A DNA stretch of 64,000 nt from Candidatus Magasanikiibacteriota bacterium (lineage in GTDB: Bacteria; Patescibacteriota; Patescibacteriia; Magasanikbacterales; UBA922): assembly GCA_018652595.1 (NCBI GenBank), contig JABIBU010000022.1, positions 50,346 through 114,345 on the forward strand, read 5' to 3'. Every line of letters starts with the position of its first letter. Position 1 is the first letter of the stretch. The notes under the pieces are model-generated. The model made no database searches. It was given only the letters and a program-made list of their open reading frames with translations, and was not told the DNA's origin. The translations under genes and the position numbers were made by a program. Shown piece by piece: positions 2,677 to 46,900 of this stretch.

Positions 2677-5502
2677 CTAAACTGGTTCTGGCTGTGGTTG
2701 AGGCATAGGCTGTGGTTGGGGTGGTTGATTTGCACTAGAATCAACAGATGGTAGTGGAGGAGGTAATTGTATATCTTCTTTAGGTGTAAGAGGAGCAGGA
2801 AGAACATTCGGTGGCATCTGATCATTATGGAATTCCTCTCTAACCATATCCCCACGGTCAAAATCTCTAGGCTCTGGTCTGATATAATTATCAGGTTTAT
2901 CAAACCTAACTTCTTCATCTTTTTGAGGCATTTCATAACGATTATCGTGAATTTCTCCTACGGGTAGAGGTCCTTCTGGTTTTATTTCTAGTCGTCTTTC
3001 TTCTGGACGAAATTCTGAAGGAGGCGGGTGCGGAAGAGATGGGTCAAGTGGTTCCATCTGTCCCCCATCCTGTATACGACGTTCTTCTTCCCAGCGACGC
3101 TCTTCTTCTTTACGTCGCCCATCTTCTTCTGTTAACCTTTTTTGATCTTCAAACACATAGACCTCTTGTTTAATATTCTCATATTGATACATCTCATCCA
3201 TTTCTTGCCTTCTCTTTTCAAGACCACCATCCATGGTTTGATTAAATAGCTGTTCTTCTTCTCTTCTACATTCATCATCACAAAATGGATCAAATGATAA
3301 ATCTTTCTTAAATGTTTGTTTGCGTAGTTCAAATTCCTTGTCCATAACAGCTTGCCTAGCTCGCCTTTCTTCTTCTCGAACTTGTTTTAATTCTTCTTCA
3401 CCTTTGGCTGAGCCATATTTTTCTTGGAAAATACGCTCAATATTTCTATTTTCTTCTTGAATTTTATCGTGTGCTTTTCGTTCTTCATCACGTAATTCTT
3501 GCCCACGAATCATGTCTTGTTTATTATCCAGGCGTCCACGAAAATCTATACCGTTCTGATTAAGTTTTTCAAACACATCTTCATCAGCCCCAACAAATTT
3601 TTGTTTAAATTGAAGAAGTGCTTCTGGGTTATCAATATGTTCCACATAGTCTGTAATAAATCCTGACTGATGTTGAATTGCTTGGTCAAAAAACCTTCCA
3701 CCACCCACAAAAGGAGGAGGACCAAACCCATCAGGACCTACACCGGGAGGGGCAAATCCTTCTTCATCCCCAAATGGAGGTGGAGGTGGTGCAAAAAACA
3801 TTTCTGGATTTTGGGCAAATTCTTCTTTCAATCTTTGAAGTGTTTCAATATCCTCTGGATTATTTGATTCAATTTGTTGAAAAAATTTCTCACCTTCCGA
3901 TCTGGCGCGCTCAATAAATTTTGTCTTTACTTCACGTTCCATTTTATCCATAAATTCTCTCTGCTCTGGGGTTAATTCTTTTTCTAACTCTTCAATCAAT
4001 CGAAATGCGGTTGGGTCGGGATTATCTGCCATTTGTTTTGAAAGTTTTTCAAACCTATCAGCAACATCTTGTGCGCCTGTATCTCCAGAAAATGCCTCGC
4101 GAAATCTATTTAACCCTTCTGTGTGCCGCTGTTCCATTTCTTTTTGCAAATCTTCATCTTCAAAATTAACTCGCTGTCTTATTTCTTCCATCACACGCAT
4201 CTTTGCTACATCAGGTTCATTCTCTTTGAATCTGGCAAACTCTCGTTCTCTCATCCTATCCCTAAACTCTTGTTCAAAGTTGTCTCCTTCAAATCTCTCC
4301 ACGTTATTCTGTATCCTGCGTGCGGCAATATCTTTTGCTACTTCAATTTTTTGACGCAATTCCTCTGGAACATCCTCCAATTGTCTGATACGGTCAAAAA
4401 TTTCCATATGAATTGTCTCATCACCACCAACGTCTCTAACATATGACTCAAACTTTTCAGCATGCCGGGCTCGATCTTCCTCTGGTATTCGTTCAAATTC
4501 TTTGTTAAAACGATTCAAAGCGTTATCTTGTGCCCGAAGAATTGCTTCACGAGCTTGTTCTGGTACTCTTTCTCCAATTTGTTGCAAAACTTCCAAATTA
4601 CGAAAGTTTTTAAATTCACTTCCACGCTGTTTTTTAAGCACACGGTCAATTCTTTCAGTTAGATGCTCACCATCTTCTCCTACCTTCGAAAAAACATCAC
4701 CAACCGCTCTTGCAGACTTCTGTCTTGCCATATCTGCTTTTTCAAAAAGCCTTTGTGCTATTTCTGGTTCATAATCAAGTGCTTCTTCTCCAATTTTGGA
4801 AAAGATCTTTTGTTGCTTAATTTGGGTATCAAGCACATCATCCAAAAACCCATCCACTCTTACATCTCCTTCTTCTTGACCTTTATGCAAATCGTCCACT
4901 CTCTTTACAATTTTTTCAATTCTTCTGTTTACATTATCTATTTCCTTTATAATTTTTTCCACACCCTTTTGGTCGTCTATTCCCTCTCCCCATCTGTGCT
5001 GAAGTTCGACCAAATCTTCTCTCATAAACTGCAGGTCAAGCTCGCTGTCTTTTACATCATCAAATGTGACTGCTTTTTTAAAAAATCTACCAACTTTATC
5101 AAACAATCCTACTCTTGACCCTTCTGCCACTCCCAAATCCTCATTTGTTACAAATTCATCTTGAGCAGCCTCTTCTGATGTTCCAAAACCATCATCACCA
5201 ACTACCATGTCAGTTTCACCACCAGACAAAAGACCATCATCAAACTCATCGGTTCCTGCTGTCTGTTCAACATCTTCAGTCAATTGTTCATATTCACCCT
5301 CAAGACTTTTATGATCTTCTGGGCCCAATGTACCATTTTGCAAAGGCAAATCTAATCCACCTGTCTCACTAGATGGCTCATCCACTTCTGCTAGCGCTCC
5401 GTCTTGCCCCAAATCTAATGCCTCGGCTTCCTGTGCATTTGCAGGAAGAACAAATAAAAAACCAGCTATCAGCAATAGAACGCCTATTTTTTGATATTTC
5501 AT
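2677..5502 (-). CDS. Large secreted polyampholyte/coiled-coil protein with Pro/Gly-rich and PQ-repeat segments (hypothetical)
   Basis: Signal peptide MKYQKIGVLLLIAGFLFVLPANA; 941 aa extremely E/R/K/D-rich; FAPPPPPFGDEEGFAPPGVGPDGFGPPPF; C-terminal PQPQPMPQPQPEPV. Confidence 0.6.
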   Translation of the reverse strand: MKYQKIGVLLLIAGFLFVLPANAQEAEALDLGQDGALAEVDEPSSETGGLDLPLQNGTLGPEDHKSLEGEYEQLTEDVEQTAGTDEFDDGLLSGGETDMVVGDDGFGTSEEAAQDEFVTNEDLGVAEGSRVGLFDKVGRFFKKAVTFDDVKDSELDLQFMREDLVELQHRWGEGIDDQKGVEKIIKEIDNVNRRIEKIVKRVDDLHKGQEEGDVRVDGFLDDVLDTQIKQQKIFSKIGEEALDYEPEIAQRLFEKADMARQKSARAVGDVFSKVGEDGEHLTERIDRVLKKQRGSEFKNFRNLEVLQQIGERVPEQAREAILRAQDNALNRFNKEFERIPEEDRARHAEKFESYVRDVGGDETIHMEIFDRIRQLEDVPEELRQKIEVAKDIAARRIQNNVERFEGDNFEQEFRDRMREREFARFKENEPDVAKMRVMEEIRQRVNFEDEDLQKEMEQRHTEGLNRFREAFSGDTGAQDVADRFEKLSKQMADNPDPTAFRLIEELEKELTPEQREFMDKMEREVKTKFIERARSEGEKFFQQIESNNPEDIETLQRLKEEFAQNPEMFFAPPPPPFGDEEGFAPPGVGPDGFGPPPFVGGGRFFDQAIQHQSGFITDYVEHIDNPEALLQFKQKFVGADEDVFEKLNQNGIDFRGRLDNKQDMIRGQELRDEERKAHDKIQEENRNIERIFQEKYGSAKGEEELKQVREEERRARQAVMDKEFELRKQTFKKDLSFDPFCDDECRREEEQLFNQTMDGGLEKRRQEMDEMYQYENIKQEVYVFEDQKRLTEEDGRRKEEERRWEEERRIQDGGQMEPLDPSLPHPPPSEFRPEERRLEIKPEGPLPVGEIHDNRYEMPQKDEEVRFDKPDNYIRPEPRDFDRGDMVREEFHNDQMPPNVLPAPLTPKEDIQLPPPLPSVDSSANQPPQPQPMPQPQPEPV

Positions 5503-5748: not shown

Positions 5749-8492
<2,744 letters not shown>

Positions 8493-8709: not shown

Positions 8710-9261
8710 CTACTTAGAGCAGGGAAGCAAGTCGATCTTCCGCCAAACGTTGATGAGTAGACGGAAGTACAGCTTCCAGCAACCACCCTCATAACAGAGG
8801 GAGGCTATGTTGGGGCTCCTCCTCTCATCCAGGAAAATGGTACCAGACAAAATGATGTACTTCCTGTCTCTCAACTCCTCCGGGATGTCGGCCTGCTCAG
8901 CAAGAAAACGTACCGCATCTGAAAGACCAAAGTTGGCCTTGAGCGCAACAGCACGCTCACGCATTTCCGGTCCCTGGATCGAATTCTTGTCCCCGTCAAA
9001 ACAGGGGACAAATTTCAAATCCTCAACCTTAATACGTCTCGGAAGAACGTCTTCCACAACCTCCCAACCCGTCGGGATAAGCTCCGGACAGAGAATCTCT
9101 GCCGGAAAAAAAGTTTTGCCTGCCTGCTTTCCATCCAGAAAAGCCTGCAAACCTTCGCGGTTAACCCGCTCGGACCGAATTTGGTCCCCCAACTCCAACA
9201 ATTGCTCCAATGTTACCTTGCTCACGACACTCTCCTCACCCATAGGTAGACAACTAAGCAC
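8710..9261 (-). CDS. Orphan small protein in higher-GC islet A (track start is GTG at 9261; ATG MGEESVV at 9243)
   Basis: About 50% GC coding segment in about 33% GC surroundings; AGGTGA upstream of the GTG start; no family recognised. Confidence 0.45.
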   Translation of the reverse strand: MLSCLPMGEESVVSKVTLEQLLELGDQIRSERVNREGLQAFLDGKQAGKTFFPAEILCPELIPTGWEVVEDVLPRRIKVEDLKFVPCFDGDKNSIQGPEMRERAVALKANFGLSDAVRFLAEQADIPEELRDRKYIILSGTIFLDERRSPNIASLCYEGGCWKLYFRLLINVWRKIDLLPCSK

Positions 9262-9422
9262 TGAGCATCACCTGATGCACAATACCATAGCTGATACGCC
9301 TACAAGCAAAATAGCCAGGAACCACTCCCAGCCAAATTTCTATCTTTTTGGCTAAAATAAGATAAAAATTTGACTAGGATTTAATGACGTATAACTAATT
9401 TTATAAAGAACTTATAATATAT

Positions 9423-11561
9423 TTATAACACATTTAGGTGGTTTTGTCTATACTTAAAATACTCATCAATAGCGCCGTCAACAAGTCGCACAGCCAGACC
9501 AATATAATCCTCTGGATGTAATACTGTCAAAATTTCTTGTTTAACTACATCTTCCACATCTAGACCTGTTACAAACCTACGCAAATCTTCTAGAGTCACC
9601 TGCTTGCCACGTGATTCTTTTTTTACTATTTCATAAGCATCAATTCGACCATATTTTCTGAGGATTGTCTGTATTGCTTCAGTTATTATTTGTGGATTAT
9701 TATTAATTTCTTCGCGAGCAAATTCCACATTAGGACGGATAAGATCAAAAGCAATTTGTAAGTGTTTCAGAGCTACATATACATAACCAATAGCCTCACC
9801 ATAAGACTTTTCCAAATCATGATCAGACAAATCACGCTGTAAACGAGATACATCTAGCTCAGATGAAAAGACATTGAATAATGCGTTGGCTTTTTTTATA
9901 TTACCCTCTGCCACCTCAGCAAACCAAGGATTTATTTTGTGTGGCATTACAGACGAACCCACGTGGCTCTCCACCTTTGTAAAATACATTGTACCAAAAC
10001 CAGCATAGAGCGACATGTCTACAGCAATATCGCGAAGTACATTACCAACTTCTTGCACTGCTTGTAGTTTGGAAATCATATCCACATGTGTCCCCCGCTG
10101 ATCAGTCCAAAGTTCACACTCTAAATTTAAACGCTTGGTTAATTCTTTTGAATATTTTATCCAATCCAAATCTGGATAAGCCGATACAAAACTATTATAA
10201 TTCCCAACTGCTCCATTTATTTTTCCAGTCAATTTTACTGATTGCATTTTTTGCAAACCATTAGTTAGTCTAACTAAATAATTGGCAAATACCTTACCAA
10301 AAGTAGTCGGGCTCGCGGGCTGTACATGAGTCCTGGCCAAAAGTGGATTGTTTTTATATTTTTCAGACAAACTTTTCAACACTTCAGTTGTTTCCAATAC
10401 ACTTGGAACAAATAATTCACTCATTCCGTCATTCAGCATCATTTTGTAGGCCAAATTATTAATATCAGCCGAAGTCGTAAACATATGTACAAAACTGGCA
10501 ACATCTGATAGACTCGTGTTTTCCATTTTTTCTTTTATCCAAAGCTCGCATGCTTTCATGTCATGTTCAACAGGACCAACACCATTTCTACCCAAGTGAT
10601 CATACTGCAAAACTTCGTAAGCTGAACTTTCGGAAAAATTATCTGCCAAATCTTTTAACCATTCCTTTTCTTTTGGTGTAAATAATCTCACTACTTGCCC
10701 ATCAAAAAAATCAGATAAGCAGAGTAGATGTTCTATTTCGGCTTTTACACGATACTTGTGCAGTGCATACTCAGAAAAATAGTGGCGAAGTGGTGCGGTC
10801 ATTTCTCCATGTCGCCCATCCAAGGCTGAAGTACTTTGCAAAGATTTTTTATAACGATCTACTTTTATTACTTCTTCTAAAATATTTTCTATGTTTTCCA
10901 AATTCTTTACAATCAAAGCATCTTCAATACCCATCTCATGAAAATCTTCTCTAGTCGTTTGCCCTTGGCAAACCCCAACAAATTTTATTTTTTGATAAAA
11001 ACTGGAATAATAATCATCACTGTGATCACCAAACATTACAGTCTGTTCTGGCTTGATACCAATATTTTCTAAATGTTTAATAGCTTCTTCAAAAGCTCTT
11101 GGGTGTGGCTTTCTAAATTCCAGCTCAGGCGGAATATGCATAAAAGCAAAATCATCAATATCAAAACCAGCCTGAGCCAGTCTCTCTGACAACATTCTCA
11201 CTCTGTTCGTCACCAACCCAACGACTAAACCAGCCTGCTTTAGACTCTTTATTGCTTCTAGAGATCCAGAAGTAGGATCATACTTTTCACTTGGAGAGTG
11301 CTCTCTATAATTTCCCAAAACTACTTCCCACAATTCCTGTCCATTGCTAACACCAAGGAATAATTCCTTAAAAATATCTTCAAATGGCAAATTCTTTGCT
11401 TGAATCCGATAAATATCGTCTTTTGTTGGCTTAGATACAGAAAAACCACCCTTAATAAGGCGGTCTACAGTTTTTGTAATATTTTTTACCACAAAATCAT
11501 TAGAGGCAATCAAAGTATTGTCTACATCAAATATAACTGCTTTTATTTCTTTGTCTATCAT
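9423..11561 (-). CDS. purB: Fusion protein: N-terminal HAD-superfamily phosphatase domain + adenylosuccinate lyase
   Basis: FDVDNTL HAD motif I with a HAD core in the first ~230 aa; C-terminal TAPLRHYFSEYAL..., LARTHVQPASPTTFGK, GKINGAVGNYN, SSVMPHKINP, SRLQRDLSD collinear with E. coli PurB. Confidence 0.85.
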   Translation of the reverse strand: MIDKEIKAVIFDVDNTLIASNDFVVKNITKTVDRLIKGGFSVSKPTKDDIYRIQAKNLPFEDIFKELFLGVSNGQELWEVVLGNYREHSPSEKYDPTSGSLEAIKSLKQAGLVVGLVTNRVRMLSERLAQAGFDIDDFAFMHIPPELEFRKPHPRAFEEAIKHLENIGIKPEQTVMFGDHSDDYYSSFYQKIKFVGVCQGQTTREDFHEMGIEDALIVKNLENIENILEEVIKVDRYKKSLQSTSALDGRHGEMTAPLRHYFSEYALHKYRVKAEIEHLLCLSDFFDGQVVRLFTPKEKEWLKDLADNFSESSAYEVLQYDHLGRNGVGPVEHDMKACELWIKEKMENTSLSDVASFVHMFTTSADINNLAYKMMLNDGMSELFVPSVLETTEVLKSLSEKYKNNPLLARTHVQPASPTTFGKVFANYLVRLTNGLQKMQSVKLTGKINGAVGNYNSFVSAYPDLDWIKYSKELTKRLNLECELWTDQRGTHVDMISKLQAVQEVGNVLRDIAVDMSLYAGFGTMYFTKVESHVGSSVMPHKINPWFAEVAEGNIKKANALFNVFSSELDVSRLQRDLSDHDLEKSYGEAIGYVYVALKHLQIAFDLIRPNVEFAREEINNNPQIITEAIQTILRKYGRIDAYEIVKKESRGKQVTLEDLRRFVTGLDVEDVVKQEILTVLHPEDYIGLAVRLVDGAIDEYFKYRQNHLNVL

Positions 11562-12282: not shown

Positions 12283-12310
12283 CCACCCCGAAAACATCGG
12301 GGTGTTTTTT
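12283..12310 (+). promoter_or_regulatory. Intrinsic-terminator-like hairpin (CACCCCG-AAAACA-CGGGGTG + T6) directly abutting the start codon of the downstream amidohydrolase gene; candidate attenuator
   Basis: 7-bp GC stem + TTTTTT immediately before the ATG at 12311; no plus-strand gene upstream to terminate. Confidence 0.4.
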
Positions 12311-13282
12311 ATGCAAGATTGGAATTTAAAAAATAAATTTTTAACAGCTGTAAATACTAACGGTGGATTTGTAAATTGCCATGGACATTTTGATAAAGCC
12401 TTTTTTATCAGTCCAGAGAAATTAGATAATTCTATGCTTGACATGCAAGCTAAGTGGCAATTGAGTGATGATACAAAAAGAAATAGTTCAATTGATGAAA
12501 TAGCTGATAGAATTAGATGTGCTCTTGATATTATGATTGATCAAGGTGTAAAAACAACTCTAAGTTTTATAGATGCTTACTCAGCTGTCGGACAAAAAGC
12601 AGTAATAGCTGCCAATCAAGTTAAACAAGAGTATAAATATAAAATAAATTTTTTAATCGCCCCTCAGCCAATAGGCGGATTACTAGACCCCGAAGAAAGA
12701 AAAATATTTGAACTGGCAGCTAGTAAATCTGACATAGTCGGAGGTCTACCCTCACGAGATCGTCCTTACATACAAAAAAGTTTTGATATTCTTTTTTCTA
12801 TTGCAAAAAAACTAGACAAACCAATACACGTCCACATTGACCAAGAAAATAATCCAGATGAAAGAGACACTGAAACACTGATTTATTATACAAAAAAATA
12901 TGGCTATGAAGGCAGAGTAGTTGCAATTCATGCTGTATCAACTACCACACAACCAAAAAAATATAGAAAGCACTTGTACAAGAAAATGGCAGAACTCAAA
13001 ATAAGTGTGGTTGTTTGCCCGTCAGCAGCGCTTAGCATGAAACCAACAAATAATAAATTATCACCTATTCGTAATTCAATTGCTCCAATTTCAGAAATGA
13101 TAGAAGCTGGAATTACTGTTGGACTAGGCGTAGACAATATATATGATTTTTACCAGCCTTTTGTAGACGGGGATCTATGGTTTGAGACTAGAATGTTGAT
13201 GGAAGCTACTCGCTTTTATGATTTTGAAAAAGTTTTAAAAATTGTAACTGAAAATGGAAAAAAAATATTAAATATTAAATAA
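12311..13282 (+). CDS. Amidohydrolase-superfamily enzyme, cytosine deaminase (CodA)-like, lacking the N-terminal beta-sandwich domain (track start is GTG at 12302)
   Basis: HGHFD metal motif; HIDQENNPDERDTETL...AIHAVS aligns with CodA HCDEIDDEQSRFVETV...ASHTTA; GLGVDNIYDFYQP aligns with CodA GHDDVFDPWYP. Confidence 0.65.
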   Translation: MQDWNLKNKFLTAVNTNGGFVNCHGHFDKAFFISPEKLDNSMLDMQAKWQLSDDTKRNSSIDEIADRIRCALDIMIDQGVKTTLSFIDAYSAVGQKAVIAANQVKQEYKYKINFLIAPQPIGGLLDPEERKIFELAASKSDIVGGLPSRDRPYIQKSFDILFSIAKKLDKPIHVHIDQENNPDERDTETLIYYTKKYGYEGRVVAIHAVSTTTQPKKYRKHLYKKMAELKISVVVCPSAALSMKPTNNKLSPIRNSIAPISEMIEAGITVGLGVDNIYDFYQPFVDGDLWFETRMLMEATRFYDFEKVLKIVTENGKKILNIK

Positions 13283-13301
13283 TATAATTATTAAATAAAA
13301 T

Positions 13302-14939
13302 ATGGAACAAGACAAAAATACATATGCCCATATCGCCTCATATGAGCCAAAAAACAAAGAAGAGGTAAAAAAAGTAGTATTATTATATTCCGGTGGATTA
13401 GATACTTCGGTAATGCTCAAATGGATTAAAGATTTTTATGAAGCAGAAGTAATTGCTCTGTGTATTGATATTGGACAGCAGGTAGATGATTTGGATGCAA
13501 TAAAACAAAAAGCATTGGATTTGGGAGCAATAAAATCAATTGTCATTGACGCAAAAGACGAATTTGCTGATAAATACATCTCTCGTGGCATAAAAGCCAA
13601 TGGTCATTATCAGGGTGACTACAACTTAAGCACCCCAATAGGCAGACCACTCTTAGCAAAATTGGCTGTCCAGGTGGCCATGGAAGAAAAAGCCGACACT
13701 ATTGCTCATGGCTGTACTGGCAAGGGCAATGATCAAGTCAGAATTGAAGGTACTGTAGTTACCTTGAACCCAGATTTAAAAGTTATTGCCCCAGTAAGAG
13801 AATGGGGGATGGGTCGTGATGAGGAAATTGAATATGCCAAAAAGCATAATATTCCTATCCCCCACACAATTGACAAATCATATTCGTCTGACGACAATAT
13901 GTGGGGAGTAACCAGCGAAGGTGGTGAAATAGAAAATCCAGAACTTGTCCCACCAATGAAAAAAATTCTTCAGGTCTGCACACATCCGGCTGACGCACCA
14001 GACGAAGAAGAGTTGGTTGAAATTGAATTTGTCAAAGGTATTCCCACAGCTCTCAATAACGAGGAAATGAAATTAAGCGAACTTATTATAAAATTGAACA
14101 AGTTGTCCGGCAGACACGGTATTGGTATTGCCCACCATATTGAAGATCGAATCGTAGGTCTAAAAGTTAGAGGCATTTATGAACAACCGGCTGCTCACAC
14201 AATTATAAAAGCTCACAAAGAATTGGAAAAATACGTTTGCACTCGACACGAAAATAAATTCAAAGAATTAGTTGATCAGGAATGGGCATATCTTTGTTAC
14301 GGTGCTTTGTGGTTTGAACCGTTGATGAAAGATCTGTCAGGTTTTATAGACACCATGAATGAAAAGGTGAACGGAAAAGTAACTCTGCGCCTATTCAAGG
14401 GCCACTGCGACACAGTTGCACTAAAAACTCCAGACGCTCTATTTGACGAAAAACTAGCCACATTCATGAAGGATGACCTATTCAATCAAAATGCATCATC
14501 GGGCTTTATTGAACTATGGACCTTGCAAATGAAGATGGCAAAACAAAGCAAAAAGAATGTTCTACTTACTATAGGCGGACAAGAAAACAAAGAAGGTCTT
14601 CTCCCAGAAATAAAAGCACTTGAAAAATTGAATTGTGTGCTGTATGCTACCGAACATACGAGTGAATTCTTGGATAAGCACGGAGTCAAAAATCGGATGG
14701 TTTATAAGATATCCAATGGCGATTCTGAAAAAAGACCTAATATAGCAACACTACTAAGAGAAAGAAGATTTGATCTTATCATAAATATTCCCTCAGCCGA
14801 AAGAAACTTTACAACCGACACAGATGGTGAAAAAATTCGTGAATTAAGCATAAAAAGCAACGTGCCTTTGGTAACAAATATAGACGTTGCCAAACATACT
14901 ATCACTCAATTGCAAGATGTAATAGAAAACAAAATGTAA
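13302..14939 (+). CDS. argG: Argininosuccinate synthase fused to a C-terminal CarB-type MGS-like (allosteric) domain
   Basis: LYSGGLDTSV PP-loop, GCTGKGNDQVR, RGIYEQPAAHTII collinear with human-type ArgG; last ~130 aa (ATEHTSEFLDKHGV...RRFDLIINIPSA...) aligns to the CarB C-terminal MGS-like domain. Confidence 0.8.
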   Translation: MEQDKNTYAHIASYEPKNKEEVKKVVLLYSGGLDTSVMLKWIKDFYEAEVIALCIDIGQQVDDLDAIKQKALDLGAIKSIVIDAKDEFADKYISRGIKANGHYQGDYNLSTPIGRPLLAKLAVQVAMEEKADTIAHGCTGKGNDQVRIEGTVVTLNPDLKVIAPVREWGMGRDEEIEYAKKHNIPIPHTIDKSYSSDDNMWGVTSEGGEIENPELVPPMKKILQVCTHPADAPDEEELVEIEFVKGIPTALNNEEMKLSELIIKLNKLSGRHGIGIAHHIEDRIVGLKVRGIYEQPAAHTIIKAHKELEKYVCTRHENKFKELVDQEWAYLCYGALWFEPLMKDLSGFIDTMNEKVNGKVTLRLFKGHCDTVALKTPDALFDEKLATFMKDDLFNQNASSGFIELWTLQMKMAKQSKKNVLLTIGGQENKEGLLPEIKALEKLNCVLYATEHTSEFLDKHGVKNRMVYKISNGDSEKRPNIATLLRERRFDLIINIPSAERNFTTDTDGEKIRELSIKSNVPLVTNIDVAKHTITQLQDVIENKM

Positions 14940-14945
14940 TAATAC

Positions 14946-15860
14946 ATGTCTAAATTAAAAACCAGATTCCTAGACAAAGAATTCAAAAACCCCATTGTCC
15001 TTGCATCGGGCATCTTAGGGTTAACCGCGGCCAGCATGAACAATGCGGTGAATAATGGGTGTGGTGGTGTGACTGTAAAATCTGTTTCCAAAGATGCTAG
15101 ACCCGGACACCCAAATCCTACTATGACCGGCACTGATCATTATTTTATCAATGCGGTTGGGCTATCTAATCCAAGTGTGGCCGAAGGAATAAAAGAATTT
15201 GCAAAATTTAAGGAGATGACTAATGCGCCTTTGGTTGGTAGTATTTTTGCTGGAACACCAGATGAATTTGCTGAGGTAACTGAAATAATTTGTCAGTCCC
15301 CGATTGATTTTTTGGAAGTAAATGTTTCTTGCCCAAATGTAAGCAAAGAATTTGGCACACCTTTTGCTTACGATACCAAAGCGGTTGAGGTAATTACAAA
15401 AAAAGTAAAAGAAAAATCCACTGTACCAGTTATAATAAAACTTACTCCCCAAGCTTGGAACGTGGCTGAGATTGCAAAAGTAGCAGAAGATGCTGGCGCT
15501 GATGCTATTTGCGCTGGAAATACTATTTCTGGCATGGCAATAGATATCAGAGCAAGGAAGCCAGTGTTACACAACAAACAAGGTGGTGTATCTGGCCCTG
15601 CTTTATTTCCTGTGGCTTTGAAGGCTGTTTATGATATTTATAAAACTGTAAAAATCCCAATCATCGGCACTGGTGGAATTACCACAGGCGAAGATGCCAT
15701 CGCCATGGTTATGGCTGGGGCAAGCTTACTAGGTGTTGGTTCTGCAGTCTACTATCGAGGACAAGATGTATTTGAAAAAATAAATAATGAAATGACAGAA
15801 TTCATGAAAAAAGAAAATATAAATTCACTTGAAGAAATTAGAGGAATAGCTCATAAATAA
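14946..15860 (+). CDS. pyrD: Dihydroorotate dehydrogenase catalytic subunit (class 1B)
   Basis: NPIVLASGILG, ...GGVSGPALFPVALK..., TGGITTGEDA motifs. Confidence 0.88.
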   Translation: MSKLKTRFLDKEFKNPIVLASGILGLTAASMNNAVNNGCGGVTVKSVSKDARPGHPNPTMTGTDHYFINAVGLSNPSVAEGIKEFAKFKEMTNAPLVGSIFAGTPDEFAEVTEIICQSPIDFLEVNVSCPNVSKEFGTPFAYDTKAVEVITKKVKEKSTVPVIIKLTPQAWNVAEIAKVAEDAGADAICAGNTISGMAIDIRARKPVLHNKQGGVSGPALFPVALKAVYDIYKTVKIPIIGTGGITTGEDAIAMVMAGASLLGVGSAVYYRGQDVFEKINNEMTEFMKKENINSLEEIRGIAHK

Positions 15861-15861
15861 T

Positions 15862-16698
15862 ATGGAAAATAATAATCCACAATTTATTCCGATATCAAAA
15901 ATAGTTGAAGAAGCCCAAGATATTAAAACTTTTTATTTTGAACATAGTTTAAATTCCAAACCAGGACAATTTATAATGCTTTGGGTACCAGAGCATGACC
16001 AGAAGCCATTTTCTATTGCGTATGATGATGGTAAATCTTTTGGTCTAACTTTTTTCAAACGTGGCCCAACCACGACAAAACTTTTTGATATGAAAGTTGG
16101 TGAAAGAGTTGGGATTGAAGGTCCGTTTGGCACGAGCTTTTCTCGTAAACCCGATACTCACTACATCATGGTCGCTGGAGGTTATGGTGCGGCACCGTTG
16201 GGGTTCTTGGCAGAATCGCTTTTGTCTCCCCCTGCCGGAGGGGGAGATGCCCGCAGGGCAGAGGGGGTGGGAGTAGACTTCTGTGTTGGTGCTAGAAATA
16301 AAGATTTAGTTTTATTTAAAAACAGAATAGAAAAAATTCCAAATACAAAACTTCATATCGCGACAGACGACGGTAGCGAAGGACATAAAGGATACATCAC
16401 TGATATATTATCAAACTTAATTGATAGCGCTGAAAAAAAAGTATTAGTTGTCACTTGTGGTCCAGAACTTATGGAAAAAAAGATTTTGAATATCTGTAAT
16501 GAAAAAAATACCGATTGCGAAATAAGCATTGAGAGATATATGAAATGTGGAGTTGGTATTTGCGGACAGTGCGCAGTTGACCCAATTGGAATTTGCATGT
16601 GTAAAGAAGGTCCAGTAGTAAAACGCGAACTGGCCAATAAAATAACTGAGTTTGGAAAATACCATCGCGATAAAAGTGGAAAAATTATTTATTTTTAA
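15862..16698 (+). CDS. pyrK: Dihydroorotate dehydrogenase electron-transfer subunit with a GC-rich in-frame insertion
   Basis: FAD/NAD-binding fold, C-terminal 2Fe-2S Cys cluster CGVGICGQCAV, adjacent to pyrD. Confidence 0.85.
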   Translation: MENNNPQFIPISKIVEEAQDIKTFYFEHSLNSKPGQFIMLWVPEHDQKPFSIAYDDGKSFGLTFFKRGPTTTKLFDMKVGERVGIEGPFGTSFSRKPDTHYIMVAGGYGAAPLGFLAESLLSPPAGGGDARRAEGVGVDFCVGARNKDLVLFKNRIEKIPNTKLHIATDDGSEGHKGYITDILSNLIDSAEKKVLVVTCGPELMEKKILNICNEKNTDCEISIERYMKCGVGICGQCAVDPIGICMCKEGPVVKRELANKITEFGKYHRDKSGKIIYF

Positions 16699-16708
16699 TT
16701 TAAAAAAT

Positions 16709-17302
16709 ATGAAAGATTTAACACTAAAACTACACGAGATAGACGCGATTAAATTCGGAGAATTCAAACTCAAAAGCGGTATCATATCACCAATTTATAT
16801 TGACTTACGTGTGACAGTCTCCTATCCAAAAGTTTTGAAAATGGTTGCAGGTGCAATGTGGGAAAGAGTGAATAATATAAATTTTGACTTACTCTGTGGA
16901 GTACCCTACACTGCACTACCTTTTGCAACGGTTATGTCTGCAGAACATGATAAACCAATGGTCATGCGCCGCAAAGAAGTAAAAGGCTATGGAACTCGAA
17001 AAGCAATAGAGGGTTATTTTGAAAATGGACAAAATTGTCTCATTGTCGAAGATTTGATAACTAGTGGATCAAGTGTGTTTGAAACTATCGAACCGTTAGA
17101 GCATGAGGGATTAAAAATAACTGACATCGTAGTCCTGGTAGATCGTGAACAAGGCGGTAAAAAACATATTGAAGGCAAAGGATACAATCTACACTCCGTC
17201 TTAACAATTTCACAAGTCTTGGAAACGCTAGAGGTAGAAGAAAAACTAGACAGTGAAATGGTAAGCAAAGTAAAAGAATTTATCACCTCTAACCAAGTTT
17301 AA
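16709..17302 (+). CDS. pyrE: Orotate phosphoribosyltransferase (track ORF starts at 16652 overlapping pyrK; ATG MKDLTLK at 16709 more likely)
   Basis: [30 protein letters not shown]-binding motif. Confidence 0.88.
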
Positions 17303-17303
17303 T

Positions 17304-18068
17304 ATGCAAACATACAAACAACGCGCTGAACTCTGTTCAAATCCTACCGCTCACAGACTTTTTAAACTAATGGAAGAAAAGCAAACCAATTTGGCAATTG
17401 CGGCCGATGTAATATCAAAACAAGAGTTAATAAAAATTGCCGACGAACTTGGGCCTGAAATTTGTGTACTAAAAACTCATATAGATATTATAGAAGACTT
17501 TGATGACGACCTAGTAATACAATTGCAAAGACTATCCGAAAAACATAACTTCTTACTTTTTGAAGATAGGAAATTTGCTGACATCGGCAACACAGTAAAA
17601 CACCAATATGAAAATGGGGTCTACCATATTGCAGACTGGGCCGATATTACCAATGCTCACACTGTACCAGGACCAGGAGTTATCGAAGGGTTGAAAGAAG
17701 TCGGACTCAGGAAAGGACGGGGGCTTCTGCTCCTTGCTGAGATGAGCCCAAAAGGAAATCTGGCCACTGGTAGCTATACTGAGGCCAGCCTAAAGATGGC
17801 AGAGGAGCACAAAGACTTTGTTATAGGTTTTATAACAATGAAAAAATTACTTGATGATCCTTGTTTTATAAATATGACTCCGGGCGTAAAGCTCGTCCAA
17901 GGTGGAGATGCACTAGGTCAGCAATATAATACACCAGAAAAAGTGATCAAGGAGCAGGGTAGCGATATAATAATTGTAGGCCGAGGAATTTATCAAGCAG
18001 ACGATCCACTAGCCGAAGCAAAAAAATACCGAGAAGCTGGCTGGCAGGCATATCAAAATAGATTGTAA
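17304..18068 (+). CDS. pyrF: Orotidine-5'-phosphate decarboxylase (long/eukaryote-like form)
   Basis: LAIAADV...LKTHIDII...GRGIY motifs, 254 aa. Confidence 0.85.
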
Positions 18069-43108: not shown

Positions 43109-43648
43109 CTAGCCCTTGACCCAGCTTTCTTCCTTAACGCCCTCTTGCTTATTCAGCCATCTACCTAAAACAAACAACAAATCACTTAACCGATTCAAAT
43201 ATTGTTTAATTAAATCATCAACTTCATATTTTTCTGACAATCCAATCATTACTCGCTCAGCTCGACGACAAACTGTTCGCGACTGATAACTTAGAGCCGC
43301 ACCCTCACAACCACCGGGCAAAATAAAATTATTAAGCTCTGGCAAATCTTTATTCATCTCATCAATCCAGTTTTCCAAATATTCTACATCTTCTTTTTTT
43401 AATTTTGGCAGACTATCCAAATCGGTCTGCAGGCCAGCAAGATTTGACCCAATAACAAAAAGCTTGTGCTGAACCTGAACTAACTTTTCCCCAACCTCAC
43501 TATCTAATTCTGCAATCAAAACACCCAAACCAGCATTGAGCTCATCCACCTCACCAATCGCTTCCATTTCCAAACAAGACTTGGAAATCCGTTTCCCACC
43601 AAGCATTGATGTCTCCCCCTTGTCTCCGGTTTTTGTGTAGATCTTCAC
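43109..43648 (-). CDS. ATP:cob(I)alamin adenosyltransferase, PduO-type
   Basis: MKIYTKTGDKGETS N-terminus and PduO/MMAB helical bundle, 179 aa. Confidence 0.85.
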   Translation of the reverse strand: MKIYTKTGDKGETSMLGGKRISKSCLEMEAIGEVDELNAGLGVLIAELDSEVGEKLVQVQHKLFVIGSNLAGLQTDLDSLPKLKKEDVEYLENWIDEMNKDLPELNNFILPGGCEGAALSYQSRTVCRRAERVMIGLSEKYEVDDLIKQYLNRLSDLLFVLGRWLNKQEGVKEESWVKG

Positions 43649-43869
43649 AGAATTATAGATTATGAATTATAGATATTAAACCACATTTAAATAGTCATAG
43701 CAAGTCGCAGAAAAAACTTGGGGGTTTGGGGGTAAAACTGTTTGAGCCCCCACTCGCGTTGTAAATGATTATTTACTTAATAGCTATGGGGCGAGTTTTT
43801 TATCCCCAAAACTTTTTGTTGCTTTTTGGTTACAAAAAGTAAAGGCACTGATGTCGCTATACCCAAAAC

Positions 43870-43900
43870 CCGACTTAGCTAGTCGGGCTTAATTTATTTA
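43870..43900 (-). terminator. Candidate terminator for nrdJ (CCCGACT-loop-AGTCGGG)
   Basis: 7-bp stem followed by a T-run on the minus strand. Confidence 0.5.
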
Positions 43901-43969
43901 ATCCTAATGCGCCTACTGCGGTGCTAAAAGGGGTCCCTCGGCTGCGCTCGGGATGACATTGGTGATTGA

Positions 43970-46900
43970 CTAACTACACCCCAAACTATCCCCACAATTC
44001 AAACACTTATAGCAAGTACCATTCCTAACGGTAACATGTCCACAAGTAGGACAAGCAGGAGCATCGCCCATCATCTCTGACAAGGCTGCGCTACTAGCAT
44101 CTTGTATAGCCTCTTCTTTTTCCATGGTTGGCAATGTGGCCTGATCCTGAACTTCACTAACTTCTACTTCTTCCTTTTTTTCTGGCAAATCCATCGTTTC
44201 TTGTGGAGCTGTGGTCTCTGCTAGTTTGGCAAGATTTTCGAATTTCTTTTTTTGAATTCCTTTTGGAAGAACTTGCACATAGTCTGTCCGTCCGAGATAC
44301 TCCATTCCCAAAACTTTGAAAACAAAATCTATTACAGAGGTGCAGCTCTTGATATTGGGATGATCTGTAAATCCACTAGGTTCAAACCTAGTAAACAAAA
44401 AGTTTTCTACATACTTTTCTAGTGGCACACCATATTGCAGCCCCATAGAAACAGAGATTGCAAACATATTTAGTGTACTTCTAAATCCAGCGCCTTCCTT
44501 GTACATGTCAATAAAGATTTCTGCTAGGCGTCCGTCTGGATATTCGCCAGTTCTAAGCCAAATTTGCTGAGTACCAATTTTGGCAGAGACGGTGATACCA
44601 CCACGCTTTGCTGGAACTTTTCTTTTTTCTCCGTGCAAATAAACTCTTCTCTCGGCCACCTCACCATCTTTACTGTATGATTCCATTGGTGTTTGAATCC
44701 CGACATGTTGACTCAAAATCTCACTAGCCTGTCTAATTGCGTCATCTTCATCATTTGTTTCCACCATTCTAGATACCTGAATTACTTCTTCTTTTTTTAC
44801 TACAACCTCTTCTTTTAGCTCTACCTTATCTTCTACCTCTTCTTTATCTTCATCACCTTTATTTTTTGAAGAAGTTGAGAGTGGTTGGCTCAATTTACAA
44901 CCATCACGATAAATTGCAACTGCCTTTAGAGCTAATTTCCAAGACTGTTCATAAGTATATTTTACATCTTCTAGGGTTGCCTCATTTGGCATATTAATAG
45001 TTTTGGAAATTGCACCGGACAAAAATGGTTGGACAGAAGCCATCATATTCACGTGGCCCATAAAGTGGATAAATCTTTCGCCTTTTTTACCATTTTTATT
45101 TGCAGTATCAAATACTGGGTAGTGCTCTTCTTTCAAATGTGGCGCACCCTCAACTGTCATAGATCCGCAAACATATTGGTTGGCCTCCTCGATCTGCTCT
45201 TCTGTATAACCCATGGCTTTTAGCATATTAAAGTCAGGGGCATTATATTCTTCTGTCTTAAATCCAACTCGTTTCATACAATCTTCTCCCAAAGTCCAAA
45301 CATTGAAAGCAAACTTAATTTCAAAAGCACCTTTTAGAGCTTTATTTAGACTAACAATATCTCCATCGTTAAATCCTTTGGCTTTCAAGCTCTCTGCGCT
45401 AACATGTGGAGAACTTGTTATGTCAGCCGTACCTTTGGCGTAGTCTAAAATACCCCCTATCTCCTCATCGCTGTATTCTAGATTTTCTAGCGCCAATGGC
45501 ATTGCTTCGTTTGCAATACGAAAGTATCCGCCACCTGCCAATTTTTTAAACTTTACTAGTGCAAAATCTGGCTCTACTCCTGTAGTCGCACAGTCCATAA
45601 GTAAACCAATTGTTCCAGTTGGTGCAAGTAGTGTAGTCTGAGCATTGCGATACCCATACTTTTCACCCATAGACAGAGCATCATTCCAAGATTCACGAGT
45701 AGCAGCTAGTAAATAGGCAGGAGCATGCTGAGGATCAATACCAACTGGCATCACTGTCAATTTTTCATACTCACTATTATCAGCATTGAACGCTGCTCTA
45801 CGATGATTACGCATTACTCGAAGCATATCTTCGCGATTGTATTCAAACTTTGGAAATGGACCAAGCAATCTAGACATCTCAGCACTGGTCTTGTAAGACT
45901 CGGCTGTCATAAGAGATGTAATAGAACCAGCAAAAGCACAGGCTTCTTCTGACTCATAAGGAATGCCATTCATCATAAGCACAGAACCAAGGTTGGCATA
46001 GCCAAGACCTAGTGTTCTAAAATCATAACTACCTTGAGCAATTTCTTCACTTGGGAATTGCGCCATGAGAATACTAACTTCTAAAACAGTAGTGACGAGT
46101 CTAGTAGCATGTTTGAACTGTTCTATTTCAAAATTTCTATTTTTTACATCAAAAAACTTGAGCAAATTGAAAGATGCCAAATTACATGCGGTGTCATCCA
46201 AAAACATATATTCGCTACATGGATTGGAAGCATTGATTCTGCCTGACTGAGGACAAGTATGCCAGTCGTTGATAGTACCATCAAACTGAATACCTGGATC
46301 AGCACAAGCCCAAGCTGCATAAGAAACTCTTTCCCACAGGTCTTTGGCTTTCATTTTTTTACAAGTACTACCGTCAGTTCGCCAAGTAAGATTCCAAGAA
46401 CCATCATTTTTTACTGATTCCATAAACTTATGTGGCACACGGACAGAGTTGTTGGAGTTTTGACCAGAAACTGTTTGGTATGCTTCCCCCTCATAGTCTG
46501 ATGCATAACCAGCGGCAATCAGAGCTGCGACTTTTTTTTCTTCTTTTACTTTCCACCCTACAAATTCTTCAATATCAGGATGGTCCATGTCGAGCACAAC
46601 CATTTTTGCCGCACGTCTGGTAGTACCACCGGATTTTATAGCTCCGGCGGCTCTATCGCCAATTTTGAGCCAACTCATAAGCCCTGATGATTGACCACCA
46701 CCCGACAGTGACTCACCAGATCCACGAAGTCCTGAAAAATTAGTGCCCGTACCAGAGCCGTATTTGAAAAGACGCGCTTCCCTAACCCACAAATCCATAA
46801 TACCACCTTCGTTTACCAAATCGTCTTTGATAGATTGTATGAAACAAGCATGTGGTTGAGGATGAGTATAAGCATCTTTGGCTTTTGTCATGACTCCGGT

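What the first reader, a model, noticed from the sequence alone, without database searches (positions are those of the whole stretch)
9423..11561. HAD phosphatase fused in-frame to adenylosuccinate lyase (PurB), inside a guaB-purA-purB salvage cluster
The N-terminal ~230 aa carry the HAD motif I FDVDNTL and the HAD core. The remainder is a full-length PurB with all signature motifs. PurB produces AMP (and AICAR); a fused phosphatase/nucleotidase domain would couple AMP formation to dephosphorylation or act on a pathway intermediate. That is an uncommon architecture. guaB and purA lie immediately upstream, suggesting a compact IMP-to-AMP/GMP interconversion module in an organism that probably lacks de novo purine synthesis.
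Basis: partly seen in the sequence, partly recalled or inferred. Interest (0 to 1): 0.55.

Follow-up and report, generated by a model that had tools for sequence, protein, structure and literature searches.

The report
HAD phosphatase fused to adenylosuccinate lyase
A real, conserved two-enzyme protein in ultra-small (CPR) bacteria joins a phosphatase to the last enzyme of AMP synthesis, and it is one form of a wider, undescribed phosphatase–PurB–PurA gene module whose PurB has a rebuilt phosphate pocket.

Summary
Window 9423-11561 (minus strand) is one uninterrupted 712-aa ORF. Residues 1-233 are a HAD-IA phosphatase with all four catalytic motifs. Residues 239-712 are an E. coli-type adenylosuccinate lyase (PurB). 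The fusion is not an artefact: the identical protein occurs on 23 contigs, and about 54 protein clusters (37-100% identity, Patescibacteria/CPR) share the architecture.

The HAD belongs to a distinct subfamily that is linked to the IMP→AMP branch in several arrangements:
- HAD-PurB, PurB-HAD, PurA-HAD and PurB-PurA-HAD fusions.
- Stand-alone HAD genes directly upstream of purB in DPANN-type contigs (5 of 5 examined).

All HAD-linked PurBs form one clade. They keep the catalytic residues but replace ribose-5'-phosphate pocket residues that are near-invariant in the 63 canonical E. coli-type PurBs compared: N90→E, N309→V, S340→H, Y16→H. Seventy-nine canonical PurB loci have no such HAD nearby. 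The partner PurA is canonical.

The HAD substrate cannot be called from sequence or fold. My best guess is a purine 5'-nucleotidase acting on the pathway product (AMP→adenosine), at about 0.4. guaB and purA are adjacent but convergent, not upstream.

I rate it a new variant of a known kind. I found no description in the literature searched.

The parts
9423..11561 (-). Whole HAD-PurB fusion gene (712 aa plus stop)
   Evidence: Single ORF. Pfam HAD_2 + Lyase_1 + ASL_C. Identical protein on 23 contigs and about 54 homologous clusters with the same architecture.
10863..11561 (-). HAD-IA phosphatase domain with C1 cap (residues 1-233)
   Evidence: Pfam and NCBIfam hits. AF2 model of the domain has pLDDT 95.6. 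Foldseek matches C1-cap HAD phosphatases.
11511..11531 (-). HAD motif I, FDVDNTL (nucleophile D12, acid/base D14)
   Evidence: D12, D14, N15 and T16 are invariant in alignments A1 and A3.
11202..11210 (-). HAD motif II, T118-N119-R120 (the subfamily's 'TNR')
   Evidence: N119 and R120 invariant, T118 at least 90% conserved.
11100..11111 (-). HAD motif III, K151-P152-H153-P154
   Evidence: K151 and P152 invariant within the fusion family and at least 90% conserved in the wider subfamily.
11013..11030 (-). HAD motif IV, G178-D179-H180-S-D182-D183
   Evidence: G178 and D183 invariant, D179 at least 90% conserved.
10848..10862 (-). Very short junction (residues 234-238) between the last HAD helix and the PurB N-terminus
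   Evidence: AF2 secondary structure. Conserved Y237, S240 and L241. In DPANN operons the HAD stop and the purB start are 12-42 nt apart.
9423..10847 (-). Adenylosuccinate lyase (E. coli type) domain, residues 239-712
   Evidence: PRK09285 at 428.8 bits. PDB 3bhg 1.6e-86. Foldseek 2ptq TMt 0.93.
10326..10328 (-). Catalytic His H412 (E. coli H171)
   Evidence: Invariant.
9927..9959 (-). Signature loop G535-SSVMPHKINP-545, containing the catalytic Ser (E. coli S295)
   Evidence: Invariant.
10809..10814 (-). R250-H251 (E. coli R15-Y16, 5'-phosphate site). Tyr is replaced by His.
   Evidence: The role of the residues is taken from PMC13539675.
10566..10568 (-). E332 (E. coli N90, ribose contact). 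Asn is replaced by Glu.
   Evidence: 56/56 in the clade versus N in 63/63 canonical.
9912..9914 (-). V550 (E. coli N309, 5'-phosphate site). Asn is replaced by Val.
   Evidence: V/C/I in 56/56 of the clade versus N in 61/63 canonical.
9816..9821 (-). H581-D582 (E. coli S340-T341). Ser is replaced by His and Thr by Asp.
   Evidence: H in 55/55 and D/E in 54/55 of the clade, versus S in 63/63 and T in 61/63 canonical.
7188..8492 (+). purA (adenylosuccinate synthetase), canonical, convergent with the fusion gene
   Evidence: Pfam 541 bits; NCBIfam PRK01117 537 bits, above the 402 cut-off. Catalytic and IMP-phosphate residues retained.
5749..7179 (+). guaB (IMP dehydrogenase with CBS pair)
   Evidence: TIGR01302 523.6 bits, above the 481.5 cut-off. 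The guaB-purA / fusion synteny is kept in L003 and L005.

Best explanation
The gene encodes a genuine bifunctional enzyme of a Candidatus Magasanikbacteria-like (CPR/Patescibacteria) bacterium.

Its C-terminal two thirds are an adenylosuccinate lyase. It cleaves adenylosuccinate, made by the neighbouring canonical PurA, into AMP and fumarate.

Its N-terminal third is a catalytically competent Mg-dependent HAD phosphatase. It belongs to a dedicated subfamily that travels with PurB and PurA as a fused or adjacent gene in CPR bacteria, in archaeal DPANN-type contigs (one is a Nanoarchaeota-annotated record) and in contigs of unknown origin.

The HAD is attached about 15 residues before the R-H dipeptide that forms one wall of the PurB 5'-phosphate pocket. 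That pocket is rebuilt in every HAD-linked PurB.

Most likely mechanism (inferred, not shown): the HAD is a purine 5'-nucleotidase that takes the pathway's nucleotide product, AMP, and converts it to adenosine and phosphate. The module would then be a regulated nucleotide-to-nucleoside switch at the IMP/AMP node of a purine-salvaging organism. This would resemble other enzymes fused to a HAD phosphatase that removes the phosphate from their product.

Layered confidence:
- Real bifunctional protein and conserved HAD-PurB-PurA module: above 0.9.
- The PurB part is a working adenylosuccinate lyase: about 0.8.
- The HAD is a phosphatase acting on a purine nucleotide of this branch: about 0.6.
- The substrate is specifically AMP: about 0.4.
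For: The fusion is real and conserved:
- One ORF.
- The identical protein is on 23 contigs and about 54 diverged clusters share the architecture.
- The AF2 model of the whole protein has pLDDT 88.6 and pTM 0.83.

The HAD looks catalytically competent:
- All four motifs are invariant or nearly so across 51 homologues and across the wider subfamily.

Pathway linkage:
- An exhaustive profile search finds the nearest HAD relatives in PurA-HAD, PurB-PurA-HAD and PurB-HAD proteins.
- Five of five stand-alone members examined lie directly upstream of purB, mostly with purA and once with guaB.
- Control: 79 canonical PurB loci, including other CPR phyla, have no such HAD within 4 kb.

PurB chemistry is retained:
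- H171, S295, K301, N303, T122, S123, Q247, R335 and R344 equivalents are conserved.
- The fold matches E. coli ADL at TM 0.93.

The pocket is remodelled only in HAD-linked PurBs:
- N90→E 56/56, N309→V/C/I 56/56, S340→H 55/55, Y16→H 39/56.
- Canonical sequences have N, N, S and Y in at least 61/63.
- These positions are the AMP phosphate and ribose contacts according to PMC13539675.

Other support:
- The partner PurA is canonical at the IMP-phosphate ligands, so adenylosuccinate and AMP are the nucleotides produced.
- Precedent for a HAD domain dephosphorylating the product of its fused partner: A. baumannii MtlD is among the structural neighbours.
Against: - No family model or structural neighbour identifies the HAD as a nucleotidase. 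The best matches are uncharacterised HADs, phosphoglycolate phosphatases and a pyrophosphatase.
- Destroying AMP that has just cost a GTP is hard to justify physiologically without regulation.
- A relative (P0050) has lost the cap and every HAD catalytic residue yet keeps the domain core and the H340/V309 pocket. So the HAD also has a non-catalytic role, and the pocket changes do not depend on HAD activity.
- R15 and R344 remain, so the pocket still looks phosphate-binding. The meaning of the substitutions is open.
Confidence: 0.4

Rival explanations
1. The HAD is an IMP-directed (or IMP/GMP/XMP) 5'-nucleotidase. It would act as an overflow valve at the IMP branch point, competing with PurA and GuaB for IMP. 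This would be functionally like eukaryotic ISN1 or cN-II, perhaps controlled by the ligand state of the fused PurB.
For: - The module sits with both IMP-consuming enzymes: guaB-purA next to the fusion and a guaB-HAD-purB-purA operon with a Ham1-type ITPase nearby in L014.
- The HAD is fused to PurA as readily as to PurB. That fits a role at the start of the branch as well as at its end.
Against: - No similarity to ISN1 or cN-II families was detected.
- It gives no reason why the PurB phosphate pocket should co-vary with HAD linkage.
- The most frequent partner is PurB, not PurA.
Confidence: 0.2
2. The HAD acts between PurA and PurB. It dephosphorylates adenylosuccinate to succinyladenosine, and the remodelled PurB then cleaves the nucleoside, so the pathway yields adenosine without passing through AMP.
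For: - Three neutral phosphate and ribose ligands of PurB (Y16, N309, S340) are replaced in every HAD-linked PurB. In PurB-HAD proteins position 16 is Asp or Glu, which is unfavourable next to a phosphate.
- PurA is unchanged.
Against: - The two phosphate-binding arginines (R15, R344) stay invariant, and position 340 gains His or Lys. That suits an anionic group rather than a 5'-OH.
- P0050 has a dead HAD and purD nearby but keeps the H340/V309 pocket, so the pocket presumably still handles phosphorylated substrates.
Confidence: 0.07
3. The HAD does not act on a purine nucleotide. It could be a pyrophosphatase or a small phospho-acid phosphatase, or a mainly structural or regulatory domain that stabilises or controls the PurB tetramer. 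Its genomic linkage would then reflect co-regulation or assembly rather than consecutive chemistry.
For: - The nearest sequence and structure neighbours are COG0546-type phosphoglycolate phosphatases, PpaX/BT2127 pyrophosphatases and uncharacterised HADs.
- The 'TNR' motif resembles the 'TNK' of phosphoglycolate phosphatases (from memory).
- P0050 retains a catalytically dead, cap-less HAD core, which shows a non-catalytic role exists.
Against: - The catalytic residues and several cap residues (N57, F60, F64, F68, Y85, R86) are invariant or nearly so over very wide divergence. That argues for a specific substrate.
- The exclusive association with PurB/PurA in five arrangements is hard to explain for a housekeeping phosphatase. 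It is absent next to 79 canonical PurBs.
Confidence: 0.25
4. The fusion is an artefact: a sequencing frameshift or misassembly joining two adjacent genes.
For: In DPANN-type contigs the same two genes are separate and only 12-42 nt apart, so a single error could mimic a fusion.
Against: - The identical 712-aa protein is called on 23 independently assembled contigs.
- About 54 clusters at 37-88% identity, from different samples and assemblers, have the same continuous architecture and a conserved junction.
Confidence: 0.01

Closest known systems
Escherichia coli-type adenylosuccinate lyase (PurB; PDB 2PTQ/2PTR, Legionella 3BHG; NCBIfam PRK09285)
   Same: - Same fold (Foldseek TM 0.93) and about 34-38% identity.
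- Catalytic His and Ser, the SSxMPHKxNP loop, the ASL_C domain and the fumarate/adenine-side ligands are conserved.
   Different: - It carries an N-terminal HAD domain.
- It scores just below the equivalog cut-off (428.8 versus 446).
- Ribose-5'-phosphate pocket residues N90, N309, S340, T341 and usually Y16 are replaced by E, V, H, D/E and H.
Bifunctional enzymes with a HAD phosphatase domain that removes the phosphate from the partner's product. One example is Acinetobacter baumannii MtlD (mannitol-1-phosphate dehydrogenase/phosphatase, PDB 7OCN). From memory: trehalose-6-P synthase/phosphatase, HisB, and plant riboflavin kinase/FMN hydrolase.
   Same: - A C1-cap HAD domain is fused to a metabolic enzyme of the same pathway.
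- The MtlD HAD domain is a structural neighbour (TMq 0.71).
- The logic of a partner that makes a phosphorylated product and a fused phosphatase is the model for the best explanation.
   Different: - No sequence-level family relationship beyond the HAD superfamily.
- In those systems the dephosphorylated compound is the known end product. Here the benefit of making adenosine is unclear, and the substrate is untested.
Uncharacterised HAD-IA proteins PH1655 (PDB 2HOQ; TIGR02253 'CTE7' family) and Bacteroides fragilis 3D6J
   Same: Best sequence and structure matches for the HAD domain. Same C1 cap topology and catalytic motifs.
   Different: - Only about 21-22% identity.
- TIGR02253 scores 72.7 against a cut-off of 169.75.
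- They lack the subfamily signature (DxDNT, N57/F60/F64/F68, Y85-R86, TNR...R127) and are not linked to purB.
Purine 5'-nucleotidases of the HAD superfamily (ISN1, cN-II, E. coli YrfG/YjjG), recalled from memory as functional analogues
   Same: HAD-type phosphatases that control purine nucleotide pools at the IMP/AMP/GMP node. This is the kind of activity proposed here.
   Different: - No detectable specific homology. The YjjG model TIGR02254 scores 24.4 against a cut-off of 159.9.
- None of them is known to me to be fused to PurA or PurB.

Membership tests
HAD superfamily phosphatase, subfamily IA (C1 cap) | Motif I DxDx(T/V) with the nucleophile Asp and the Asp+2 acid/base | tested here: met
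   F11-D12-V-D14-N-T16-L. D12, D14 and T16 are invariant.
HAD superfamily phosphatase, subfamily IA (C1 cap) | Motif II Ser/Thr, motif III Lys, motif IV acidic pair (G/S)(D/S)x3-4(D/E) | tested here: met
   T118; K151; G178-D179-H-S-D182-D183. All are invariant or at least 90% conserved.
HAD superfamily phosphatase, subfamily IA (C1 cap) | Rossmannoid core with a helical cap inserted after motif I | tested here: met
   AF2 model pLDDT 95.6 with helices 20-91 between strands 1 and 2. Foldseek top hits are C1-cap HADs.
HAD superfamily phosphatase, subfamily IA (C1 cap) | Mg-dependent phosphomonoesterase activity and an identified substrate | not testable with these tools
   Needs an enzyme assay.
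Adenylosuccinate lyase, E. coli type (PRK09285 / Lyase_1 + ASL_C) | Fumarase/aspartase-superfamily fold with the ASL_C domain | tested here: met
   Pfam Lyase_1 and ASL_C. Foldseek 2ptq TMt 0.93, rmsd 2.1.
Adenylosuccinate lyase, E. coli type (PRK09285 / Lyase_1 + ASL_C) | Catalytic acid His171, catalytic base Ser295 and the signature loop SSxMPxKxNP | tested here: met
   H412 and G535-SSVMPHKINP-545 are invariant in the clade.
Adenylosuccinate lyase, E. coli type (PRK09285 / Lyase_1 + ASL_C) | Curated equivalog score cut-off | tested here: not met
   428.8 bits against a cut-off of 446 (PRK09285); 221 against 326 (TIGR00928).
Adenylosuccinate lyase, E. coli type (PRK09285 / Lyase_1 + ASL_C) | Canonical ribose-5'-phosphate ligands (E. 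coli R15, Y16, N90, D92, N309, S340, R344) | tested here: not met
   R15, D92 and R344 (here K585) are kept. Y16→H251, N90→E332, N309→V550, S340→H581. Residue roles from PMC13539675.
Adenylosuccinate lyase, E. coli type (PRK09285 / Lyase_1 + ASL_C) | Cleavage of adenylosuccinate (and SAICAR) | not testable with these tools
   Needs an assay or complementation of ΔpurB.
TIGR02253 (CTE7) HAD hydrolases | Score above the family cut-off | tested here: not met
   72.7 against 169.75.
Phosphoglycolate phosphatase (TIGR01449 / PRK13222) and PpaX pyrophosphatase (PRK13288) | Score above the family cut-off | tested here: not met
   31.3 against 180; 46.4 against 225; 51.1 against 218.
YjjG-type HAD nucleotidases (TIGR02254) | Score above the family cut-off | tested here: not met
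   24.4 against 159.9.
Proposed 'PurB/PurA-linked HAD' subfamily (defined here) | Signature DxDNT, N57, F60/F64/F68, Y85-R86, T-N-R120, R127 and GD(H)xxD, together with fusion or adjacency to a PurB of the H340 clade | tested here: met
   Invariant columns of A3. Architectures and contexts. Control.

The most novel reading that the evidence does not exclude
HAD + PurB (H340 clade) + PurA would be a previously unrecognised three-enzyme module of ultra-small symbionts (CPR bacteria, DPANN archaea and others). In it, the phosphatase receives the nucleotide directly from a PurB whose 5'-phosphate pocket has been rebuilt for hand-off. The module would convert IMP to adenosine, or would toggle between AMP and adenosine output. 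That would be a dedicated nucleotide-to-nucleoside switch with substrate channelling, not a chance domain fusion.
Probability: 0.3. Interest if true: 0.75.

Novelty: new variant of a known kind. Interest (0 to 1): 0.6.

Why it matters
CPR bacteria and DPANN archaea live on salvaged nucleotides, and how they balance and dispose of purine nucleotides is poorly understood.

This analysis points to a phosphatase that has been fused to the two AMP-branch enzymes in several different arrangements. It co-occurs perfectly with a PurB clade that has changed ribose-phosphate contacts which are near-invariant in the canonical E. coli-type PurBs compared here. That marks an unannotated, testable step in the purine economy of these organisms.

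It also gives three practical results:
- A natural experiment on how adenylosuccinate lyase recognises the 5'-phosphate.
- A sequence signature (PurB H340/V309/E90, plus the HAD motifs 'DxDNT...YR...TNR') that would let annotators separate these proteins. They currently carry generic names such as 'HAD hydrolase-like protein' or 'lyase family protein'.
- A clear set of enzyme assays that would settle the function.

Tried and rejected
Searches that gave little or nothing:
- Word-indexed homologue searches with the HAD domain alone, or with alignment A3, returned almost nothing (1 and 4 proteins). The exhaustive profile search was needed.
- The search for related loci with HAD alignments A3 and A1 failed because no stretch was conserved enough.
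- The single genome-contig scan with A2 was swamped by the generic PurB pattern. It returned only one fusion-family fragment (L016), so it says nothing about taxonomic breadth. I reused it as a negative control.

Attempts to assign a HAD substrate that failed:
- The PDB profile search and Foldseek gave only generic or uncharacterised HAD-IA neighbours.
- The distance between the HAD and PurB active sites could not be measured, because model coordinates are not exposed.

Literature:
- Four literature searches found no description of a HAD-PurB or HAD-PurA fusion or module (one search was a follow-up read).
- The primary E. coli ADL structure papers are not held. The roles of the phosphate-site residues therefore rest on the Leishmania ASL paper and on my memory of E. 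coli numbering. I checked the numbering against the 4nsl alignment and the residue check.

Ideas rejected or downgraded:
- Frameshift artefact: rejected.
- P0264 (NB-ARC/TPR-HAD) and P0238 (tandem HAD) as members of the subfamily: rejected, because they lack the signature.
- PurA also being remodelled at its IMP-phosphate site: rejected.
- A strict link between an intact HAD and His at PurB position 16: rejected. Several intact-HAD fusions keep Tyr.
- PurB cleaving the dephosphorylated nucleoside: downgraded, for the reasons given under the rival explanations.
Full report
**Observation.** Window 9423-11561 holds a single 712-aa ORF on the minus strand.
- Pfam places HAD_2/Hydrolase on residues 6-197 and Hydrolase_like on 149-222. 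Lyase_1 covers 338-553 and ASL_C covers 572-687.
- The NCBIfam adenylosuccinate-lyase equivalog PRK09285 covers residues 239-695 at 428.8 bits, just under its 446-bit cut-off.
- The best solved relatives are Legionella and E. coli/Salmonella PurB (E about 1e-86 to 1e-82, residues 240-695).
- An AlphaFold2 model of the whole protein is confident (pLDDT 88.6, pTM 0.83). Its PurB part superposes on E. coli ADL with TM 0.93.

**Not an artefact.**
- A protein identical over all 712 residues is called on 23 contigs from several projects. One source names it 'HAD hydrolase-like protein [Candidatus Magasanikbacteria bacterium]'.
- About 54 further clusters of 690-760 aa, at 37-88% identity, have the same HAD + Lyase_1 + ASL_C architecture. 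Where named, they come from Magasanikbacteria, Uhrbacteria, Parcubacteria or 'Patescibacteria group'.
- In 51 full-length members, HAD motifs I (D12, D14, T16), II (T118), III (K151) and IV (G178-D179...D183) are invariant or nearly so. The same holds for the PurB catalytic His (H412) and the SSxMPHKxNP loop.
- The junction is very short and conserved.

**Surroundings.**
- guaB (5749-7179) and purA (7188-8492) lie on the plus strand, so they converge on the fusion gene rather than lying upstream of it.
- Terminator-like hairpins sit just upstream (11720-11693) and downstream (9334-9312) of the fusion gene on its own strand. These are consensus matches only, but they suggest a monocistronic unit.
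- The guaB-purA / fusion arrangement recurs in two relatives at 67% and 50% identity (L003, L005). It does not recur in an Uhrbacteria genome (L004).
- The rest of the window is housekeeping plus a pyrimidine operon. No other purine gene is present, so loss of de novo purine synthesis cannot be judged from this window.

**A dedicated HAD subfamily.** A profile of the fused HAD domains was searched exhaustively against 1.84 billion representative proteins. It found 55 representatives at E ≤ 1e-30.
- Among the best hits were PurA-HAD proteins (P0122, P0127).
- There was also a PurB-PurA-HAD triple fusion (P0123).
- Seven hits were PurB-HAD proteins with the HAD at the C-terminus.
- Many hits were stand-alone proteins of about 215-230 aa.

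All of these share a signature beyond the generic motifs: DxDNT, N57, F60/F64/F68, Y85-R86, T-N-R120, R127 and GD(H)xxD.

I could look up the genomic context of five stand-alone members. Each one lies directly upstream of purB:
- HAD-purB-purA in a Nanoarchaeota-type genome.
- HAD-x-purB-purA.
- HAD-purB.
- HAD-purB next to purA.
- CYTH-guaB-HAD-purB-purA with a Ham1-type ITPase nearby.

The PurA-HAD gene directly follows a purB.

As a control, I examined 79 canonical PurB loci from named genomes. They include Doudnabacteria, Saccharibacteria, Nomurabacteria and Peregrinibacteria. None contains a HAD of this subfamily within 4 kb.

**A distinct PurB clade.** In a neighbour-joining tree the HAD-linked PurBs form one clade, separate from canonical E. 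coli-type PurBs. The subclades follow the architectures. The table compares 56 sequences of the CPR/DPANN part of the clade with 63 canonical sequences.

| E. coli position | HAD-linked clade | Canonical PurB |
|---|---|---|
| N90 | E in 56/56 | N in 63/63 |
| N309 | V/C/I in 56/56 | N in 61/63 |
| S340 | H in 55/55 | S in 63/63 |
| T341 | D/E in 54/55 | T in 61/63 |
| Y16 | H in 39/56 | Y in 62/63 |

- PurB-HAD proteins have D or E at position 16 and a non-Asn residue at 309 in six of the seven.
- The PurB of the guaB-HAD-purB-purA operon has F16, M309 and K340.
- According to the Leishmania ASL structure paper, the residues equivalent to R15, Y16, N309 and R344 form the AMP phosphate site. 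N90 and D92 contact the ribose, and S340 is substrate-binding (PMC13539675).
- The catalytic residues and the fumarate/adenine-side residues are unchanged.
- The partner PurA enzymes keep every catalytic residue and every IMP-phosphate residue examined.

So only the ribose-5'-phosphate pocket of PurB is rebuilt, and it is rebuilt only where this HAD is present. The two arginines remain and position 340 becomes cationic. I therefore read the pocket as still phosphate-binding but with altered geometry or affinity.

**A natural variant.** P0050 (633 aa, 50% identical, same synteny) has lost the HAD cap.
- Its motifs have degenerated: FDVDNTL→LHIDSIP, T118→V, GDHSDD→GNCLAD.
- It nevertheless retains the HAD core fused to PurB.
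- Its genome has purD and a canonical pyrB-pyrI nearby.
- Its PurB has Y at position 16 but keeps V309 and H340.

This shows two things. The HAD core has a non-catalytic, structural or regulatory role. HAD catalysis is dispensable in at least one lineage that appears to have de novo purine genes.

**What the HAD does.** Neither family models nor structure identify a substrate.
- The best NCBIfam family (TIGR02253) scores far below its cut-off.
- The nearest PDB sequences and folds are uncharacterised HADs (3D6J, PH1655), phosphoglycolate phosphatases, a Bacteroides pyrophosphatase, and the HAD domain of the bifunctional mannitol-1-phosphate dehydrogenase/phosphatase MtlD.

The inference therefore rests on four points:
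- The exclusive, repeated fusion and adjacency to PurB and PurA.
- The co-varying PurB phosphate pocket.
- The attachment of the HAD about 15 residues before the R250-H251 wall of that pocket.
- The usual logic of HAD fusions, in which the phosphatase removes the phosphate from the partner's product.

I commit to a purine 5'-nucleotidase acting on AMP, giving adenosine and Pi, as the most likely activity (about 0.4). This would make the protein a switch between nucleotide and nucleoside output at the IMP/AMP node of a salvage-dependent organism. The rivals are:
- An IMP/GMP-type overflow nucleotidase (0.2).
- A non-nucleotide or mainly regulatory HAD (0.25).
- Dephosphorylation of adenylosuccinate followed by cleavage of the nucleoside (0.07).

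The main weakness of the AMP idea is physiological: it undoes a GTP-costing synthesis unless it is regulated.

**Comparison with what is known.**
- The PurB part works like, and is structurally, an E. coli-type adenylosuccinate lyase. It fails two membership criteria, the curated score cut-off and the canonical phosphate/ribose ligands. I therefore file it as a divergent clade of that family.
- The HAD part meets every defining feature of HAD-IA phosphatases that sequence and fold can test. It belongs to no characterised family.
- The four literature searches and one follow-up read found no paper describing a HAD-PurB or HAD-PurA fusion or module.
- The proteins are in public databases only under generic names.

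**Verdict.** However, the key functional claim, the HAD substrate, remains inference. Novelty: new variant of a known kind. Interest: 0.6.

Noticed in passing
window 12302-18068 (+); also L003 3267-9762 and L005 7381-9745: An operon runs divergently from the fusion gene. Its order is: AtzC/cytosine-deaminase-like amidohydrolase (NCBIfam PRK06886 'hypothetical'), ArgG fused to a C-terminal MGS-like domain (the fold of the carbamoyl-phosphate synthetase allosteric domain), pyrD, pyrK, pyrE, pyrF. No pyrB, pyrC or carAB lies in the operon or the window. In relative L005 the same position is occupied by canonical OTCace-PyrI-OTCace genes. Speculation: ArgG plus an amidine-hydrolysing amidohydrolase could transfer the carbamoyl group of citrulline to aspartate (argininosuccinate + H2O → ornithine + carbamoyl-aspartate). 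That would bypass carbamoyl phosphate and ATCase.
   Followed up: partly
L005 10001-11902 (protein P0050): This member of the fusion family has a degenerate HAD domain. The cap is deleted, the nucleophile Asp is replaced by His, and motifs II-IV are lost, but the core is still fused to PurB. purD and pyrB/pyrI are nearby.
   Followed up: partly
L012 4800-6788 and flanks: A PurB-HAD protein (HAD at the C-terminus) sits on a contig rich in F-box-like and LRR proteins. That gene content suggests an amoeba-associated bacterium or a giant virus rather than CPR or DPANN. The origin was not determined.
   Followed up: no
L014 3155-9485: A Ham1-type ITP/XTP pyrophosphatase and a CYTH-domain protein lie next to a guaB-HAD-purB-purA operon. 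This suggests a broader IMP-recycling gene cluster.
   Followed up: no
L003 15465-16373; L010 1603-2490: An EamA (DMT-family) transporter gene lies next to the purine module in two unrelated loci, beside guaB in L003 and beside the PurB-PurA-HAD triple fusion in L010. It could be a nucleoside or nucleobase transporter.
   Followed up: no
window 8710-9261 (-) versus 8807-9355 (+): Two overlapping ORFs of about 183 aa lie on opposite strands between purA and the fusion gene. Public gene calls chose the plus-strand one, whose translation is Ser/Arg-rich and looks non-coding. The minus-strand ORF looks more protein-like. Neither has a Pfam hit.
   Followed up: partly
window 2677-5502 (-): A 941-aa protein with an N-terminal signal-like segment, a very acidic, Glu/Arg-rich and repetitive body, and a Pro-rich C-terminus. 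It had no family on record when called on public contigs. It may be a surface or secreted protein of the symbiont.
   Followed up: no
window 43109-47479 (-): A class II (B12-dependent) ribonucleotide reductase with a TSCPD domain lies next to a cobalamin adenosyltransferase. This is consistent with a nucleotide-salvaging lifestyle that still makes its own dNTPs.
   Followed up: no
protein P0055: A 1046-aa 'hypothetical protein [Fragaria x ananassa]' scores 433 bits against the query, between the fusion family and the archaeal PurBs. It could be contamination of a plant assembly or an unusual eukaryotic architecture. Not examined.
   Followed up: no
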